A stretch of 64,000 nucleotides of DNA from IMG/VR virus record IMGVR_UViG_3300002835_000037; one strand, written 5' to 3'. Both the position numbers and the translations under genes were made by a program. The notes beneath the pieces are model-generated. The model searched no databases. It was given only the letters and a program-made list of their open reading frames with translations, and was not told the DNA's origin. Every line of letters starts with the position of its first letter. Position 1 is the stretch's first letter. The stretch is from an uncultured virus (IMG/VR IMGVR_UViG_3300002835_000037). Lineage: Duplodnaviria > Heunggongvirae > Uroviricota > Caudoviricetes. Shown here piece after piece: positions 33,189 through 62,386 of the stretch.

Positions 33189-33200
33189 TAATATACTAAA
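33189..33200 (-). promoter_or_regulatory. Candidate phage late-promoter motif TTTAGTATATTA
   Basis: Identical 12-mer at 50852-50863; variants at 53569-53580 and 57605-57616; each is intergenic and upstream of a start codon. Confidence 0.5.
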
Positions 33201-48613: not shown

Positions 48614-49609
48614 CTATAGTACTCTTGAGTTATGGTTATTTCTATACCCAATATTAGGACTATAACTTCGGAACATATCATAGAACATACCATTCATAGC
48701 TTTTCTATTTGCTTTCCAAAGTTTTTCCATTTCTTTAAAGTTTGGAGTATTTACCAAACCTAATGCTTGATTTCTAGCAGCTCTAAGTTTTGGCATTATT
48801 AGCTGTAATCTTTGAGCTACATCTTCTCCGTTCATATAAAGATTCTCTAGTATTCTTTCTTTTAATGCATACTCATAATATTCATTAAGAAGCTCATGAT
48901 CAGGAACCATTAAGTTTCCATGTTCATCTTCCATATGACCTTGATAGTTAATATACACCGTACCTTCTTGAAAAGATGTATACAAAAATCCAAACTTTAT
49001 CCAACCTTCATTATGGGTATTGTAATAAAGATTTGGACAATCACAATCAATTTCTTGACTAGACTTCATTCTTAAAGGTTGAGTGTTTCTATAAATTCTA
49101 GTAGTAGCTTCATTTACTACCTGAACTAACTCATAAGCTTCACCTTTTTTATTTACAAAAACTCTAGGTTTAATGCACGTATCTCCATATGGTTGATCAG
49201 GATTATGAGTTACACAAACCCCCTCCTTTCCGTTGAAACAACAAGGTTGTTCAACAGGAGCTTCACAACAATTCAAAATAGTTTTAGCAGGATACTCTCT
49301 ATAAGGTACTTCTTCAATATGAGTTCCACCTATTGAATAACCTGAATAATGAATGTAACTTCCGCAAACCAATGCAAAATTAAAAGCATAAAAGTCATCA
49401 GGTAATTTTACCTTTCCGTGACTTACTTCTAGTAGGGCTTCTTTTTGCTGAGTAATTCTTAAACCTAGATCATAGTTTATCTTTCTAGCAAGTTTAATCA
49501 ACTGCTGAGGTTCAATCATATTTTCTAAAGCAAAAGTATGCAAGTCAACTCTTACATCTTCTAAAAGTTGATCAAAAGTTCTATACTTGAGGGTGTAGTT
49601 AAAATCCAT
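48614..49609 (-). CDS. Tail tubular / ring protein (P22 gp4-like, ring 1 position), 331 aa
   Basis: Directly before the muzzle gene; KVKLPDDF and TVYINYQG..DEHGNLMVPDH motifs; Cys/Pro-rich insert. Confidence 0.65.
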   Translation of the reverse strand: MDFNYTLKYRTFDQLLEDVRVDLHTFALENMIEPQQLIKLARKINYDLGLRITQQKEALLEVSHGKVKLPDDFYAFNFALVCGSYIHYSGYSIGGTHIEEVPYREYPAKTILNCCEAPVEQPCCFNGKEGVCVTHNPDQPYGDTCIKPRVFVNKKGEAYELVQVVNEATTRIYRNTQPLRMKSSQEIDCDCPNLYYNTHNEGWIKFGFLYTSFQEGTVYINYQGHMEDEHGNLMVPDHELLNEYYEYALKERILENLYMNGEDVAQRLQLIMPKLRAARNQALGLVNTPNFKEMEKLWKANRKAMNGMFYDMFRSYSPNIGYRNNHNSRVL

Positions 49610-50271: not shown

Positions 50272-50849
50272 AATTCAAATTCATTATAGCTTTTTAAAGC
50301 TTGTTTTTCTTTATTCACAACCATACTTTTATATACAGCTTTTTCATAGGTTTTCCTTAGTTTAATGGTTGAATCTACAGCTACATACATATTCCAATTC
50401 TCAGGATAACTTTTAGAAACAGATCTTTTAAAGTCTCGACATGCTACAAAATTCCAAAATTCTCTGTTTTTCATTTTGTGCTTTGGTGCATAGTTTGTAA
50501 AAAAGATTTTTGCTAGTTTACCATCAGTATCAAAATTGCTATTTGTAACAGTTACTCCATACTTGTTAGACTTTGCATAATCTACATTTGTCTTTTTACT
50601 TTTTTGACAAGTACCAATAAAAAGCCATCCAACATTCTCTGGTAATTGAACACCATCTCTTTTTTCTATCACTGTTGTATAAACCATTTTATTGAATGCT
50701 TTTATTATCTCTCTCAACTCAGCATTTGTATAATCTTTATACTTAGCATGTTTTTTTCTAAAGTCATCAAAAAATTTTTTATCTAAAACACTGTGTGTTT
50801 CTGGTCTAAACCTAGGTGCTTTTAAATCAGGCTTTTTAAATGTCTTCAT
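50268..50849 (-). CDS. IHF/HU-like DNA-binding protein of the crAss-like tail module (193 aa)
   Basis: LREIIKAFNKMVYTTVIEKRDGVQLPENVGWLFI resembles the HU/IHF core; basic; expected position. Confidence 0.55.
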   Translation of the reverse strand: MKTFKKPDLKAPRFRPETHSVLDKKFFDDFRKKHAKYKDYTNAELREIIKAFNKMVYTTVIEKRDGVQLPENVGWLFIGTCQKSKKTNVDYAKSNKYGVTVTNSNFDTDGKLAKIFFTNYAPKHKMKNREFWNFVACRDFKRSVSKSYPENWNMYVAVDSTIKLRKTYEKAVYKSMVVNKEKQALKSYNEFEL

Positions 50850-50851
50850 AA

Positions 50852-50863
50852 TAATATACTAAA
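50852..50863 (-). promoter_or_regulatory. Candidate phage promoter motif TTTAGTATATTA
   Basis: Exact copy of 33189-33200; just downstream of a terminator. Confidence 0.45.
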
Positions 50864-50889
50864 AATTAATGATATCTGCAAATATACAT

Positions 50890-50924
50890 ATAAAACAAAG
50901 CCCTCACAAGTGCAAGGGCTTTGT
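50890..50924 (-). terminator. Intrinsic terminator after the 382-aa gene
   Basis: 10-bp perfect stem ACAAAGCCCT/AGGGCTTTGT (50895-50904 and 50915-50924) running into T residues on the minus strand. Confidence 0.75.
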
Positions 50925-50928
50925 CTGT

Positions 50929-50958
50929 TTGTCACAGAAACCAACAAACCTGTAACAA
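50929..50958 (-). ncRNA. Candidate 3'-UTR hairpin / small RNA with loop GUUUGUUGGUUU
   Basis: Stem UUGUUACAG/CUGUGACAA (9 bp including a U-G pair available only on the minus strand) with a 12-nt loop, directly before the terminator. Confidence 0.4.
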
Positions 50959-50960
50959 TA

Positions 50961-52109
50961 TTATCCTATGACAGTGATACTAAAGTTATTTAAAGCTACT
51001 AAAGATGTGTTAGTCACAGTAATTTGATTAGCACTATTAATTACATATGTATAATCAGCGGGTGAAGTATACACTACAAAAGGTGCTGGTAAAGCTTCAT
51101 TAATTGCTGAAACCACAATCCCAAAAGTATTTAAATTATGAGTTATTACAGCAGTACCCCCTGGAGCCAAAGGTACTATTAAAACTTCTCTGTATTTTTG
51201 AACATCTGCTGAAATAGTAACATCTGTAGCTGTTGAAGTCAATGTAATACCTGAACCTGCGGCCAAACCTTTATTTGCTAAAGTAGGTCCTGCTCCATCA
51301 TTAACTAAGGATTCTGTTCCCAAACCTCCTGCGGAAGTTAAAGATACAGCTGAAGCAGGTGATGAGTTAGTGATTCTAATAGCATCTGTACCAGGAACAG
51401 TACTAGCATTAAGAGTAATTCCAGTACCAGCTACAAAATTTAAAGTATCTCCAGGAGCTTCAGCAATCTGAATATTTGTAGGATCATTATCCGGACCCCA
51501 CACAAAACCTGAATCAGGATTAATCTGAGCTCTATCAAAATCATTTGGTTGAATTACACTTCCCGGTACTACTGATGCTCCAGTAACGTGTCCAAAAGTA
51601 TCAAATGTAAAGAATATATCTTGTATAAATGAATTACCACTGTTATCACTATTTAAATTTGCTACAGATGATGTATCTTGATGAGATACAGTAACAGCAC
51701 TTGTGATAGGATTAACAGCTACATTAATACCAGGACCAGCAAAAAATGATGATGCAATAGTTTGTGCAATAATAATATCAAAGTAAGCTTGTAAAGCCGG
51801 AATATCAACTGATACTGTATATGTTGTTACATTACCTACGGTTGCTGGTACAACGTCAACATAAGTAGAACCTACAACCGTGGTTACAGGACCTACTGTA
51901 TTACAGATATAGTTTACTAATTTAGTAATAACAGTGTCCATATAATCATATCGACTGATTACAACATCCCCATTACATGTAATATCAGTACCTGTATAAA
52001 CAATACAAGAAGCATTAAACACTTCGGGACATGAAGGAGGACAAGGTGGTGTAACAACGTATGTATCAGTACATCCGCAATTTTTAGTACAATTGTGAGA
52101 AGTTGCCAT
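50961..52109 (-). CDS. Putative tail/head fibre-like structural protein (382 aa)
   Basis: Cys-rich N-terminus similar to the 463-aa neighbour; repeated AGxGI(T/N) beta segments; ITHNLNT C-terminal motif. Confidence 0.55.
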   Translation of the reverse strand: MATSHNCTKNCGCTDTYVVTPPCPPSCPEVFNASCIVYTGTDITCNGDVVISRYDYMDTVITKLVNYICNTVGPVTTVVGSTYVDVVPATVGNVTTYTVSVDIPALQAYFDIIIAQTIASSFFAGPGINVAVNPITSAVTVSHQDTSSVANLNSDNSGNSFIQDIFFTFDTFGHVTGASVVPGSVIQPNDFDRAQINPDSGFVWGPDNDPTNIQIAEAPGDTLNFVAGTGITLNASTVPGTDAIRITNSSPASAVSLTSAGGLGTESLVNDGAGPTLANKGLAAGSGITLTSTATDVTISADVQKYREVLIVPLAPGGTAVITHNLNTFGIVVSAINEALPAPFVVYTSPADYTYVINSANQITVTNTSLVALNNFSITVIG

Positions 52110-53568: not shown

Positions 53569-53580
53569 TAATATACAAAT
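53569..53580 (-). promoter_or_regulatory. Candidate phage promoter motif ATTTGTATATTA
   Basis: Variant of the GTATATTA motif, 16 nt upstream of the ATG at 53552. Confidence 0.45.
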
Positions 53581-55468: not shown

Positions 55469-55609
55469 TTAGCTTTTTATTTCAGAATCCGTTTTTAAAG
55501 TATTTTCATAATTTTTTAAACAATTGCTACAAACAACTTTTCCATTAGATGCTGTTCTTCTTTGGCACCCACAGGATAATTTTTTTAAGCAATTAGGACA
55601 TGTACTCAT
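55469..55609 (-). CDS. Small Cys-rich (zinc-finger-like) protein, 46 aa (MSTCPNCLKKLSCGCQRRTASNGKVVCSNCLKNYENTLKTDSEIKS); not in the ORF track
   Basis: Hand-translated; CxxC..CxC..CxxC; fills the intergenic gap; A-rich leader. Confidence 0.7.
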   Translation of the reverse strand: MSTCPNCLKKLSCGCQRRTASNGKVVCSNCLKNYENTLKTDSEIKS

Positions 55610-55630
55610 AGTTGTTGGTTTTTTATAAGT

Positions 55631-59319: not shown

Positions 59320-59892
59320 TTAACAATTCCATTTTCTTAAATACTCTTTTGCTTCAGAAGACTCTTTATTATAATATAGTAAATAAATCCGTGCAAACTC
59401 TAATAAAAAAGGATCATCTTTAAAATGACCTAATCCCATATTACAATTATTGCAAAGCATTCCCCTTACTATATTTGTAGTATGACAGTGATCAACTACA
59501 AGGTTTTCTTCAGATCCACATATAATACAACCTTCAGTTTTGATTAATTCTTTTAATTCTTCATCACTAATCATTGATCTATATTGACCTCTTCTTATTT
59601 CACTTCTATAAGAAGCTCTACATGTTTTACACCAACTGTCAAAACCATCTAAGGTTCTTTTATGTGCTGTAAAATATTCATTTGTTCTTGGTTTTTCTAT
59701 GTTACATTTCTTACATGTTTTGTTTTCTGAAAAACCTTTTTCTAATTGTATTTTATTGTTATAATCTTTTGAACAAGTTATAGTACAAAAAACAGTATTA
59801 TTCTTTTTTAATGTTCTTTCAATATCTGATTTACCTCTTATAAAAGAATTATCACAATGTGTACAATTATATTCTATCTTCTTTGATGGCAT
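59320..59892 (-). CDS. Endonuclease VII-family HNH (putative homing) endonuclease, 190 aa
   Basis: CIICG..LVVDHCH..VRGMLCNNCNMGLGHFKDD; N-terminal CxxC zinc ribbons. Confidence 0.88.
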   Translation of the reverse strand: MPSKKIEYNCTHCDNSFIRGKSDIERTLKKNNTVFCTITCSKDYNNKIQLEKGFSENKTCKKCNIEKPRTNEYFTAHKRTLDGFDSWCKTCRASYRSEIRRGQYRSMISDEELKELIKTEGCIICGSEENLVVDHCHTTNIVRGMLCNNCNMGLGHFKDDPFLLEFARIYLLYYNKESSEAKEYLRKWNC

Positions 59893-59909: not shown

Positions 59910-60175
59910 TTCCTTGCTAATCTTAATCTACTATTTGGATCTTTAGCAGCTTTTGGAAAATTAGCCATTTGCCCTGCAGATCTACTACAAAAAGACTTTC
60001 TTCTTTTAGCATCTTTGCTATCAGGATCAAGCTGCGATGGTTTTTTGGTAACAGCAGTTTGTAACTTACTACCTGGATTAGCTGCTCTATAGCTAGCTAC
60101 TCCTTTTGCATTAAGACCTCCTTTAGGATCTTTACCCTCTTTACGAGTCCATGCAGCTGTTTTCTTTTTTGCCAT
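59894..60175 (-). CDS. Small basic phage protein (93 aa)
   Basis: AWTRKEGKDPKGGLNAKG..RRKSFCSR..KWNC; tightly packed with neighbours. Confidence 0.8.
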   Translation of the reverse strand: MAKKKTAAWTRKEGKDPKGGLNAKGVASYRAANPGSKLQTAVTKKPSQLDPDSKDAKRRKSFCSRSAGQMANFPKAAKDPNSRLRLARKKWNC

Positions 60176-61335: not shown

Positions 61336-62349
61336 TTAAGATTGCCAAACTTTTTCTACAGCAGAGTTCAGATCATTTAAAATATCTTCATGTAAAGGGT
61401 TTTTTAAATACTCAACTACATCAGATACATTTCGACCAAGCAGTGTGACTGTCTTAGCATGATAAATATATCCATCTGCCTTATTAATAATATACTTAAA
61501 AAAACTGGAATCTCTAACAATTGATTTAATTTTTAAAGTTTCCATGTCAAGATTAGCGGCATCTATAAATGATTTAGCTGATCTTTCTTTGTTTGGTTCG
61601 GAACCTTCTCCATTAATGTGTCTATCCATATTTTCATATATCACATCCAACGGAGTTGCTTTTCTATATTGGGCACTATTACCATCTACAATTTTTGCAA
61701 TGTAAAATAGTTTAGTGCTGTTCTTATCATATAATTTCTGAAGTTCAGCAAGAGCTTTGTTACGCATCTTCTTGTATTCAGTTCTAATCATTGAAGTTTC
61801 TTCTTCTTTATCTAGATAGAATTTAGGTGGTACAGGTCTTGATCTAGCATCTTCATAGCTTTTTGCTACAATTGAAAATCCTCCTGCTTCAATAGCTAAA
61901 TACTTAATTCTATCAAAAGGTTGAGTAAGATCTAAGAATACCGGTTCATTACCACACTTAATCTCAATCTTATTCCAAAACTCTGAATTATCAGGTTTTA
62001 ACATTTTTACCTGGTTCCAAAAATCTTTATCTTCAGGATCTAATACATTTGCTGCTAGTTCTTTTTCTAATTCTGAAACTGTTTCTCTAATTTGTCTTAC
62101 TCTAGCTTCTCTTTCTTCTGTAGGAAGAAGCTTGATTTCTGGAGCAAATTCATTAAGGCCTGTTAAATATCTCATTACACCATTAGCTTCAAGACATGCT
62201 AATTGTTCATGATGTTTAACACCGTCATATAAAGCTAGACCATATTCTTCAAGACCCATGTTACCTGAATTAGTATCTATAAAAGGTCTAATTGCTAACT
62301 TAGTTTTTTTTCTGCTGGTAGTTTCTACCATTGTAAATTTTGTTTCCAT
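61336..62349 (-). CDS. Conserved capsid-module protein following MCP (crAss gene 75 position), 337 aa
   Basis: Directly downstream of MCP; RYLTGL, DFWN and LGRNVSDVVEYLKNP motifs. Confidence 0.6.
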   Translation of the reverse strand: METKFTMVETTSRKKTKLAIRPFIDTNSGNMGLEEYGLALYDGVKHHEQLACLEANGVMRYLTGLNEFAPEIKLLPTEEREARVRQIRETVSELEKELAANVLDPEDKDFWNQVKMLKPDNSEFWNKIEIKCGNEPVFLDLTQPFDRIKYLAIEAGGFSIVAKSYEDARSRPVPPKFYLDKEEETSMIRTEYKKMRNKALAELQKLYDKNSTKLFYIAKIVDGNSAQYRKATPLDVIYENMDRHINGEGSEPNKERSAKSFIDAANLDMETLKIKSIVRDSSFFKYIINKADGYIYHAKTVTLLGRNVSDVVEYLKNPLHEDILNDLNSAVEKVWQS

Positions 62350-62386
62350 GTTGGTTTTTTATTTGTTGGTTATTAAATACAAAGTT

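What the first reader, a model, noticed from the sequence alone, without database searches (positions are those of the whole stretch)
50890..50958. 3'-UTR hairpin whose loop is antisense to the AAACCAAC element before two start codons: candidate phage small RNA
Seen: 2 nt after the stop of the 382-aa gene, the minus-strand RNA forms UUGUUACAG-[GUUUGUUGGUUU]-CUGUGACAA and then a terminator. The loop complements AAACCAACAA just before the ATG of the 46-aa gene (55612-55621, 10 bp). It also complements two tandem sites in the leader of the 337-aa gene (AACCAACAAAU 62361-62371; AAACCAACA 62349-62357, including the A of AUG). Inference: a trans-acting riboregulator with an exposed seed loop that controls translation of genes tagged with AAACCAAC, in a host group that largely ignores Shine-Dalgarno signals.
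Basis: partly seen in the sequence, partly recalled or inferred. Interest (0 to 1): 0.72.

Follow-up and report, generated by a model that had tools for sequence, protein, structure and literature searches.

The report
Conserved anti-leader hairpin in crAss-like phages
A freshwater crAss-like phage keeps, just after a tail-region gene, a small RNA hairpin whose exposed loop mirrors a short tag placed right before the start codons of a few phage genes, so it is a strong but still untested candidate for an RNA that tunes how much of those proteins is made.

Summary
On the minus strand, 2 nt after the stop of the 382-aa gene, sit UUGUUACAG[GUUUGUUGGUUU]CUGUGACAA and then an intrinsic terminator. 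The loop complements AAACCAAC boxes before the ATGs of the 46-aa and 337-aa genes.

The window is a lake-water crAss-like phage. The hairpin is present in every related phage examined where I looked for it. The loop core GUUGGUUU is invariant, while the stem changes with pair-preserving substitutions, so it is a selected RNA structure.

The box AAACCAAC lies 0-8 nt before the ATG of three orthologous gene families (perfect in 118 of 130 distinct leaders). It is not enriched in five Bacteroidota genomes and has no complement in 62 Bacteroidota 16S genes.

Hairpin and boxes co-occur in all nine divergent genomes tested. However, loop flanks and box flanks do not co-vary (permutation P=0.80), and box substitutions are not biased towards wobble. 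No RNA data exist.

Best reading (about 0.55): the loop pairs RNA-to-RNA with the boxes and modulates translation initiation. Whether it acts in trans, and in which direction, is unknown.

The scan reported this same element on eight other genomes. I could not reproduce the claim, made in two of those notes, that loop and boxes change together. No Rfam family and no paper matched in my searches.

The parts
50929..50958 (-). Seed hairpin. The 5' arm is 50958-50950, the 12-nt loop GUUUGUUGGUUU is 50949-50938 (invariant core GUUGGUUU) and the 3' arm is 50937-50929.
   Evidence: Searches give the fold. Searches give conservation and stem covariation.
50891..50926 (-). Intrinsic terminator hairpin with a G+C core (GCCC/GGGC), loop ACUU and a U-rich tail. 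It would form the 3' end of the transcript that carries the seed hairpin.
   Evidence: Compensatory changes in relatives are visible.
50961..52109 (-). The 382-aa gene whose 3' UTR holds the hairpin. Its function is unknown, and it lies just upstream of the tail ring genes.
55612..55621 (-). Leader box AAACCAACAA, 2 nt before the ATG (55609) of the 46-aa Cys-rich gene. It sits inside a 21-nt intercistronic gap.
55469..55609 (-). The 46-aa Cys-rich gene, which is box-tagged.
62349..62371 (-). Two tandem leader boxes (AACCAACAAAU at 62371-62361 and AAACCAACA at 62357-62349) in front of the 337-aa gene.
61336..62349 (-). The 337-aa gene directly after the major capsid gene and its terminator. It is box-tagged.
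50852..50886 (-). Conserved promoter-like block between the terminator and the next gene. It comprises TATATTTG (50886-50879) and TTTAGTATATTA (50863-50852) abutting the ATG at 50849 of the 193-aa gene.
   Evidence: The promoter reading is inference.

Best explanation
The hairpin is a selected RNA structure at the 3' end of the transcript ending after the 382-aa gene. It may also be released as a roughly 70-nt RNA made of the seed hairpin plus the terminator hairpin.

Its single-stranded loop (core GUUGGUUU) base-pairs with the AAACCAAC box. That box occupies about -4 to -14 in front of the start codon of a small set of phage mRNAs. In the window these are the 337-aa gene next to the capsid gene and the 46-aa Cys-rich gene. 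In relatives they also include the ~418-aa gene just before the capsid gene, which lies beyond the window end, and a few others.

Pairing over the ribosome-loading region would change translation initiation. Repression is the more likely direction, because the leaders are otherwise A-rich and unstructured in a phage that uses no Shine-Dalgarno sequences.

Shown: the structure, its conservation, the box, its position and its specificity to the phage. Inferred: that the two pair, that this happens in trans, and the sign of the effect.
For: 1. RNA structure.
- All 33 distinct close variants fold into the hairpin.
- 83 of 84 distinct segments, including distant ones, form at least 6 pairs around the core, using 48 different stems. 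Examples are GUUACAG/CUGUGAC, GUCACGA/UCGUGAC, GCUGUGA/UCGCAGC and GUCGGAG/CUUCGAC.
- On the model-fitted alignment, 91.9% of cells are paired against 21-61% when partners are slid. Two pairs have changes on both sides. The covariation score is 0.243 against 0.185, reached by 0 of 500 shuffles.
- Many variants use G.U pairs, which work only on this strand as RNA.

2. Loop conservation.
- TTGTTGG is present in 62 of 62 distinct regions.
- A stem-anchored pattern scan of IMG/VR gave 64 hits. Of these, 57 were true hairpins, all with a (U/G)(U)UGUUGGUUU loop, and 7 were unrelated coding DNA.

3. Box conservation.
- ACCAAC is present in 52 of 55, 36 of 41 and 55 of 55 distinct leaders of the three gene families.
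- Perfect AAACCAAC is present in 118 of 130 distinct leaders, and the other 12 have one mismatch. The spacer to the ATG is mostly 3-6 nt.

4. Translation-level placement. The box of the Cys-rich gene sits in an intercistronic gap of about 20 nt, with no room for a promoter.

5. Distribution in a 96%-complete relative. AACCAACA occurs 12 times.
- 1 is the hairpin.
- 5 lie within 15 nt 5' of a called ATG.
- 1 is a tandem copy 29 nt upstream of an ATG.
- 1 lies before an alternative in-frame ATG.
- 1 lies just after an ATG.
- 3 are internal to genes.

6. Co-occurrence. Hairpin and boxes are both present in 9 of 9 divergent genomes. That includes 5 in which the hairpin has moved 1.4-2 kb away from the 193-aa gene.

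7. Phage-specific tag. AAACCAAC-N0-8-ATG occurs 241 times against 270 for the reversed control in five Bacteroidota genomes.

8. Duplex energy. The loop pairs with the two tagged start regions at -13.4 and -12.3 kcal/mol. The next best of 28 start regions is -8.0.
Against: - There is no direct evidence of a transcript, a processed RNA or an effect.
- There is no intermolecular covariation. In nine genomes with variant loops, the phage's own loop fits its own leaders no better than other phages' leaders (-10.0 against -10.3 kcal/mol, P=0.80).
- Where loops changed next to the core (UUAGUUGG, UAAGUUGG, UUGGUUGG), the boxes mostly stayed CCAACAA or CCAACC. Only the 8-nt core is then complementary.
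- Box substitutions are not biased towards wobble-preserving changes: 5 of 12 preserve pairing.
- Within this window alone the duplex energies are not exceptional. 2.3% of all 42-nt sense windows reach -12 kcal/mol.
- The fixed SD-like spacing and the absolute invariance of both cores over deep divergence could reflect a third partner rather than mutual pairing.
- The host is unknown.
Confidence: 0.55

Rival explanations
1. Independent elements. The box is an autonomous ribosome-recruiting tag, standing in for a Shine-Dalgarno sequence and read by a host or phage factor. The hairpin has another job, such as protecting the mRNA 3' end, aiding termination or binding a protein. On this reading the complementarity is never used.
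For: The SD-like spacing of the box is 0-8 nt, mostly 3-6. Both cores are invariant with no covariation. Substitutions show no wobble bias. The hairpin always sits beside a terminator, and in 64 of 80 distinct contexts the stop of a long ORF lies within -6 to +16 nt of the stem.
Against: An exact complement of 8-11 nt between the only invariant loop and the only conserved leader motif of the phage is very unlikely by chance. The two elements co-occur in 9 of 9 divergent genomes. An end-protecting or termination-helping hairpin needs no conserved loop sequence, yet the loop is the most conserved part while the stem drifts.
Confidence: 0.15
2. Reverse direction. Box-bearing head-gene mRNAs pair with the loop and change the folding of the hairpin-terminator pair. 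This would set how much transcription reads through into the downstream 193-aa, ring-protein and giant-protein genes. In short, an RNA-controlled terminator.
For: The hairpin is always immediately 5' of a terminator, which is followed by the next operon. The loop's UUUG and the 3' flank ACAAC/ACAAA allow alternative local pairings.
Against: No conserved antiterminator helix was found. In five genomes the hairpin-terminator pair precedes a different, inserted gene. A conserved promoter-like block follows the terminator, so the downstream genes need not depend on read-through.
Confidence: 0.08
3. DNA-level site. AAACCAACAA is the operator of a DNA-binding regulator, and one copy happens to lie in inverted orientation between two operons.
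For: The motif occurs in both orientations. Some boxes lie shortly downstream of a promoter-like block.
Against: All boxes share one orientation and a fixed distance to the ATG. One box lies in an intercistronic gap of about 20 nt without a promoter. The inverted copy is framed by a stem under RNA-type selection, with G.U pairs and compensatory changes, which a DNA site would not need.
Confidence: 0.05
4. rRNA mimicry. The boxes pair with a segment of host 16S rRNA, and the loop is a decoy copy of that segment.
For: The box has SD-like spacing, and both cores are invariant.
Against: GTTGGTTT was found in 1 of 62 near-full Bacteroidota 16S genes, and that copy lies beyond the 3' end of the rRNA. 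The true host is unknown, and 23S and other RNAs were not examined.
Confidence: 0.03

Closest known systems
3'UTR-derived base-pairing small RNAs of bacteria (CpxQ, SroC, DapZ type; named from my own knowledge, not from a call)
   Same: It lies in the 3' UTR of a protein gene and shares that gene's intrinsic terminator. It has a short conserved single-stranded seed complementary to the translation-start regions of several mRNAs.
   Different: It is encoded by a lytic-type crAss-like phage, and its targets are the phage's own genes. The seed is presented in a hairpin loop. The targets carry one uniform tag at a fixed SD-like distance rather than diverse sites. No Hfq or ProQ context is known, and expression and processing have not been seen.
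c4 antisense RNA of phages P1/P7 (from my own knowledge; also named in earlier scan notes)
   Same: It is a phage-made RNA whose loops complement sequences at the ribosome-binding region of the phage's own genes, and it acts on translation.
   Different: There is no sequence or Rfam relationship: no family reached its gathering score and c4 was not among the weak matches. It has one loop and several dispersed target genes, instead of two loops and one operon. The setting is virion genes, not immunity.
Shine-Dalgarno / anti-Shine-Dalgarno pairing
   Same: A short invariant motif a few nucleotides before the start codon has an invariant complementary RNA partner.
   Different: The partner here is a phage hairpin, not 16S rRNA. 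No complement was found in 62 Bacteroidota 16S genes. Only a handful of genes carry the tag.
Rfam MicC (RF00121) and GibS (RF04182), the weak matches of the permissive scan
   Same: They have a small-RNA-like layout with a terminal hairpin.
   Different: MicC scores 32.9 bits against a gathering score of 90. GibS scores 25.4 against 115 and lies on the opposite strand. Neither is a family member.

Membership tests
3'UTR-derived base-pairing sRNA | Lies downstream of a stop codon and ends at the mRNA's own intrinsic terminator | tested here: met
   The stop is at 50961-50963, the hairpin at 50958-50929 and the terminator at 50926-50893. A long ORF's stop lies within -6 to +16 nt of the stem in 64 of 80 distinct contexts.
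3'UTR-derived base-pairing sRNA | Conserved single-stranded seed complementary to target mRNAs | tested here: met
   The loop core is invariant. It complements AAACCAAC boxes at start codons.
3'UTR-derived base-pairing sRNA | Accumulates as a discrete small RNA, by processing or from an internal promoter | not testable with these tools
   No RNA run is listed for this DNA. No conserved promoter is seen 5' of the hairpin in relatives.
3'UTR-derived base-pairing sRNA | Regulation depends on base pairing, shown by covariation or compensatory mutations | tested here: inconclusive
   The core is invariant on both sides. The flanks do not co-vary (P=0.80). Box substitutions show no wobble bias, with 5 of 12 preserving pairing.
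P1/P7 c4 antisense RNA (Rfam C4) | Sequence and structure homology to the family model | tested here: not met
   No Rfam family reached its gathering score in the window. C4 is absent from the permissive list.
Intrinsic terminator (second hairpin only) | G+C-rich stem followed by a U tract | tested here: met
   RNAfold gives 15 pairs with a U-rich tail. The simple scanner did not list it. Stems in relatives show compensatory changes.
SD-like element read by 16S rRNA | A complement of the box exists in the host small-subunit rRNA | tested here: not met
   GTTGGTTT is in 1 of 62 near-full Bacteroidota 16S genes, outside the mature 3' end. The host itself is unknown.
crAss-like phage (context) | Crassvirales virion genes | tested here: met
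   Pfam CrAss_Ring_2 (1.6e-23) and CrAss_Ring_1 (2.2e-11) match. The capsid gene matches PHROG 11589. Giant ORFs of 1835-3840 aa are present.

The most novel reading that the evidence does not exclude
The hairpin RNA is a phage-made surrogate anti-Shine-Dalgarno. On this reading it is a small RNA that rides on, or is handed to, the host 30S subunit. It pairs with the AAACCAAC tag at a fixed SD-like distance (mostly 3-6 nt before AUG). This would recruit ribosomes to a chosen set of phage mRNAs in a host whose own anti-SD is unused, making it an activator rather than a repressor. The fixed spacing, the absolute invariance of both 8-nt cores across deeply diverged phages, the lack of any 16S complement and the phage-specificity of the tag are all compatible with this. 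Nothing tested here excludes it.
Probability: 0.06. Interest if true: 0.95.

Novelty: new variant of a known kind. Interest (0 to 1): 0.66.

Why it matters
No regulatory RNA turned up for crAss-like phages in my literature searches, although they are among the most abundant phages of gut and water. How genes are selected for translation in hosts that ignore Shine-Dalgarno signals is also poorly understood.

This element pairs one invariant loop with a uniform tag placed at the ribosome-loading site of a few virion genes, and it is kept across hundreds of phage genomes. That makes it a compact and directly testable system for RNA-controlled translation in such hosts. If the pairing is real, it would be a phage-wide post-transcriptional regulon. 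If the loop recruits rather than blocks ribosomes, it would be a new principle of start-site selection.

Tried and rejected
- **RNA evidence.** The look-up of sequencing runs listed 20 DNA holders, all freshwater or lake metagenomes. No RNA holder was listed, so I did not lay reads.
- **16S mimicry.** Rejected for 62 Bacteroidota 16S genes.
- **Host-wide leader motif.** Rejected: 241 matches against 270 for the reversed control in five Bacteroidota genomes.
- **Loop/box covariation.** Sought in nine divergent genomes and not found. Wobble bias in box substitutions was also not found.
- **RNAcofold of the 3' UTR with leaders.** Uninformative, because a loop-to-leader kissing complex is a pseudoknot that it cannot model.
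- **Covariance model R1.** It recovered close relatives but missed or only partly matched distant stems. Its second window hit, at 60039-60071 (E=0.045), is coding sequence without the loop.
- **Named relatives.** GenBank phages have no DNA match and no match to the 193-aa protein. The best capsid match is 28.8% identical, in Leptolyngbya phage Lbo-JY46.
- **Function of tagged proteins.**
  - PHROGs and Pfam gave nothing for the 418-, 337- and 46-aa proteins.
  - PDB sequence searches gave nothing.
  - AlphaFold models were poor, with pLDDT 58.9 and 56.0.
  - Foldseek gave no match at E<=0.001.
- **Rfam.** No family reached its gathering score. The permissive scan gave only sub-threshold MicC and GibS-like noise.
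- **Apparent ORF-free 10 kb at the end of relative G004.** This is one open frame running off the contig, not recoding.
- **First distant-homologue alignment (A2).** It was too divergent for the search for related loci. A smaller alignment (A3) worked.

Full report
**1. The observation**

Reading the minus strand, the 382-aa ORF (50961-52109) ends with TAA. Two bases later come TTGTTACAG (50958-50950), GTTTGTTGGTTT (50949-50938) and CTGTGACAA (50937-50929). This is a 9-pair stem with one U.G pair and a 12-nt loop.

A second, 15-pair G+C-cored hairpin with a U-rich tail follows at 50926-50893. The 126-nt region folds at z = -4.6, and 0 of 200 shuffles fold as well. Next comes a conserved promoter-like block, and then the ATG of the 193-aa gene at 50849.

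The leader sites are also exactly as reported.
- AAACCAACAA lies at 55621-55612, 2 nt before the ATG of the 46-aa gene.
- AACCAACAAAT lies at 62371-62361, and AAACCAACA at 62357-62349, before and into the ATG of the 337-aa gene.

AAACCAAC occurs 9 times on both strands against 2.5 expected, with 0 of 100 shuffles reaching 9. Only three copies are in the sense orientation, and two of those three are at start codons. The 12-mer loop is unique in the window.

**2. Context**

All genes in the window lie on the minus strand. They include giant ORFs of 1835-3840 aa, a capsid gene (PHROG 11589) and the crAss tail ring proteins (Pfam CrAss_Ring_2 at 1.6e-23 and CrAss_Ring_1 at 2.2e-11). This is a crAss-like phage.

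- No GenBank phage is close. There is no DNA match and no match to the 193-aa protein. The best capsid match is 28.8% identical.
- The DNA is held by 20 freshwater or lake metagenome runs, and no RNA run is listed.
- None of the roughly 30 start codons has a Shine-Dalgarno-like leader. This fits the SD-independent initiation known for Bacteroidota (my own knowledge). The host itself is unknown.

**3. The hairpin is a selected RNA structure**

Relatives whose 382-aa protein is only 53-64% identical keep the hairpin with an identical loop.

Retrieval through the downstream 193-aa protein, which does not depend on the hairpin sequence, gave 80 loci with 62 distinct upstream regions. All 62 contain TTGTTGG inside a hairpin that is followed by a terminator. 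All 33 distinct hairpin segments fold as predicted, at -4.6 to -9.4 kcal/mol.

Stem changes are mostly pair-preserving transitions through G.U (A-U to G.U, and U.G to U-A). One subclass uses a different stem, AGUUGAAG...CUU-A-CAACU.

Distant homologues (193-aa protein about 40-56% identical to the query) carry the same loop on quite different stems. Examples are GUCACGA/UCGUGAC, GCUGUGA/UCGCAGC, GUCGCAG/CUGUGGC and GUCCACA/UGUGGAC.

- Over 84 distinct segments, 83 form at least 6 pairs around the core, using 48 distinct stems. Native arms average -8.0 kcal/mol against -5.9 for swapped arms.
- On the model-fitted alignment of 38 matches, 91.9% of cells pair against 21-61% with slid partners. 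Two pairs change on both sides (7 cells). The covariation score exceeds all 500 shuffles. That alignment leans towards the structure, and it covers mainly close relatives.
- A stem-anchored pattern scan of IMG/VR returned 64 hits. Of these, 57 are true hairpins, all with a (U/G)(U)UGUUGGUUU loop, and 7 are unrelated coding sequence.

The frequent G.U pairs mean the structure exists only on the transcribed strand, so it is RNA. The stop of a long ORF lies within -6 to +16 nt of the first stem base in 64 of 80 distinct contexts. In the other 16 no long ORF was detected by my criteria.

**4. The box is a conserved, phage-specific start-site tag**

In relatives the box sits before three orthologous genes:
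- a gene of about 418 aa, two genes before the capsid gene and just beyond the window's end;
- the 337-340-aa gene after the capsid terminator;
- the small Cys-rich gene.

ACCAAC is present in 52 of 55, 36 of 41 and 55 of 55 distinct leaders, from 80, 53 and 80 loci respectively. Counted more strictly, perfect AAACCAAC is present in 46 of 52, 31 of 36 and 41 of 42 distinct leaders. Every remaining leader has a single mismatch. The spacer to the ATG is 0-8 nt, mostly 3-6.

The Cys-rich gene's box lies in an intercistronic gap of about 20 nt with no room for a promoter. It must therefore act on RNA.

In a 96%-complete relative (115 kb), AACCAACA occurs 12 times:
- 1 is the hairpin;
- 5 are within 15 nt 5' of a called ATG;
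- 1 is a tandem copy 29 nt upstream of an ATG;
- 1 precedes an alternative in-frame ATG;
- 1 follows an ATG by 8 nt;
- 3 are internal to genes.

Two of the tagged genes in that relative lie outside the virion module.

The tag is not a general feature of Bacteroidota. AAACCAAC-N0-8-ATG occurs 241 times in five genomes, against 270 for the reversed control.

**5. Are the loop and the box linked?**

They are exact complements over 8 nt (GUUGGUUU and AAACCAAC), extending to 10-11 nt in this window and most relatives. Duplex energies of the loop with the two tagged start regions are -13.4 and -12.3 kcal/mol, and the next best of 28 start regions is -8.0. However, 2.3% of all 42-nt sense windows reach -12, so energy alone is weak evidence.

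Hairpin and boxes co-occur in 9 of 9 divergent genomes that I examined.
- Four have variant loops.
- In the other five the region just before the 193-aa homologue lacks the hairpin, but the hairpin plus terminator lies 1.4-2 kb upstream, with an extra gene inserted between them.
- 36 of the 63 distinct distant upstream regions lacked the hairpin at that place. I checked only those five genomes.

I found no intermolecular covariation.
- Variant loops (UUAGUUGGUUU, UAAGUUGGUUU, AAAGUUGGUUU, UUGGUUGGUUUCC) are not matched by changed boxes.
- A permutation test over the nine genomes gives -10.0 kcal/mol for a phage's own loop and leaders, against -10.3 when permuted (P=0.80).
- Of the 12 single substitutions in boxes, 5 are wobble-preserving (C to U, or A to G) and 7 are not.

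Two earlier notes of this scan state that loop and boxes change together. I could not reproduce this.

**6. Rivals tested**

- **A 16S rRNA segment mimicked by the loop.** GTTGGTTT is in 1 of 62 near-full Bacteroidota 16S genes, and that copy lies past the 3' end. Not supported.
- **A DNA operator.** This is disfavoured by the single orientation and fixed ATG distance of the boxes, by the promoter-less intercistronic copy, and by RNA-type selection on the stem around the inverted copy.
- **Independent functions with unused complementarity.** This cannot be excluded. It gains some weight from the SD-like spacing and from the lack of covariation. It does not explain why the loop, rather than the stem, is the invariant part.
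- **A reverse arrangement, in which box RNAs modulate termination.** This remains possible, but no conserved antiterminator was seen.

**7. Mechanism proposed**

Shown: a conserved 3'-UTR RNA hairpin with an invariant exposed loop, next to a terminator. Also shown: a phage-specific invariant tag at the ribosome-loading site of 3-7 genes per genome, perfect complementarity of the two cores, and strict co-occurrence.

Inferred: the loop pairs with the tags, as part of the full mRNA or as a processed RNA of about 70 nt, and alters initiation. Occlusion, meaning repression, is the simplest outcome. It could balance head-associated proteins once the tail-region operon is transcribed.

The boldest reading not excluded is activation, with the RNA serving as a surrogate anti-SD.

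**8. Comparison and novelty**

- No Rfam family reaches its gathering score. The permissive scan gives only MicC at 32.9 of 90 bits and GibS at 25.4 of 115 bits, the latter on the other strand.
- Literature searches produced nothing on regulatory RNAs or leader tags in crAss-like phages. I saw only the listings and abstract openings.
- In passages found by term search, a 2025 review of phage small RNAs (PMC12197685) has no occurrence of 'crass' or 'bacteroid'.
- A paper on phage bS21 in freshwater Bacteroidetes phages (PMC9723584) has no occurrence of 'motif'.
- By layout the element works like a 3'UTR-derived base-pairing sRNA, or like the P1/P7 c4 RNA (both recalled from my own knowledge). 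It is not a member of any described family.
- The scan has reported the same element on eight other genomes.

**9. Limits**

- There are no RNA data.
- The host is unknown.
- The functions of the tagged proteins are unresolved. The ~418-aa protein is predicted to be largely helical with disordered ends and sits just before the capsid gene. That would fit a scaffold-like role, but the model is poor (pLDDT 56.0).
- The intermolecular test rests on nine divergent genomes.

Noticed in passing
window 50852-50863 (-), 33189-33200 (-), 53569-53580 (-): A conserved block, TTT(A/T)GTATATTA, lies directly before several genes. At the 193-aa gene it abuts the ATG, and in relatives it is followed by 0-12 nt. 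This suggests a phage promoter type giving leaderless or very short-leader mRNAs. The same block precedes the ~418-aa gene in relatives.
   Followed up: partly
L474:3185-3250, L475:3177-3235, L476 (between capsid gene and 337-aa homologue): Distant relatives replace the simple capsid-gene terminator with a terminator plus a structure of about 60 nt. That structure has an acceptor-like stem and a tRNA T-arm motif (GGTTCGATCC), and it sits just 5' of the box-bearing leader. ARAGORN finds no tRNA and Rfam finds nothing. The folds have z = -3.4 and -4.1. It may be a processing signal.
   Followed up: partly
L246, L251-L256, L262, L296, L300 etc. (418-aa gene homologues): Many homologues carry a second AACCAACA copy immediately after the ATG, within codons 3-5 (ATGGAAACAACCAACA). 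The start codon is therefore bracketed by two boxes, much like the tandem boxes upstream of the 337-aa gene.
   Followed up: no
window 50921-50931 (-) and the same place in relatives: The 3' flank of the hairpin (ACAAACA here, ACAACAAC in most relatives) resembles the box and can pair with the loop. This gives a possible self-masking alternative fold. It is absent from some distant relatives (GACUGACAGG).
   Followed up: no
G012:33809, G013:16663, G014:115898, G015:106363, G016:77503: In one large subgroup an extra gene of about 1.4-2 kb is inserted between the hairpin-terminator pair and the 193-aa gene. The hairpin therefore stays with the upstream operon's end, not with the downstream promoter.
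   Followed up: partly
window 55469-55609 (-): The 46-aa box-tagged protein is Cys-rich (CxxC...C-G-C) and is conserved at 46-67 aa across relatives. It looks like a zinc-ribbon-like mini-protein, and its function is unknown.
   Followed up: no
window 59320-59892 (-): An endonuclease VII / HNH-like gene (PHROG 2633, 9.5e-29) sits among small genes inside the virion module. It is absent at this place in some relatives.
   Followed up: no
window 48614-48693: The ATG-to-stop ORF of the 1835-aa protein overlaps the end of the Ring_1 gene by 80 nt. The true start may be further downstream.
   Followed up: no
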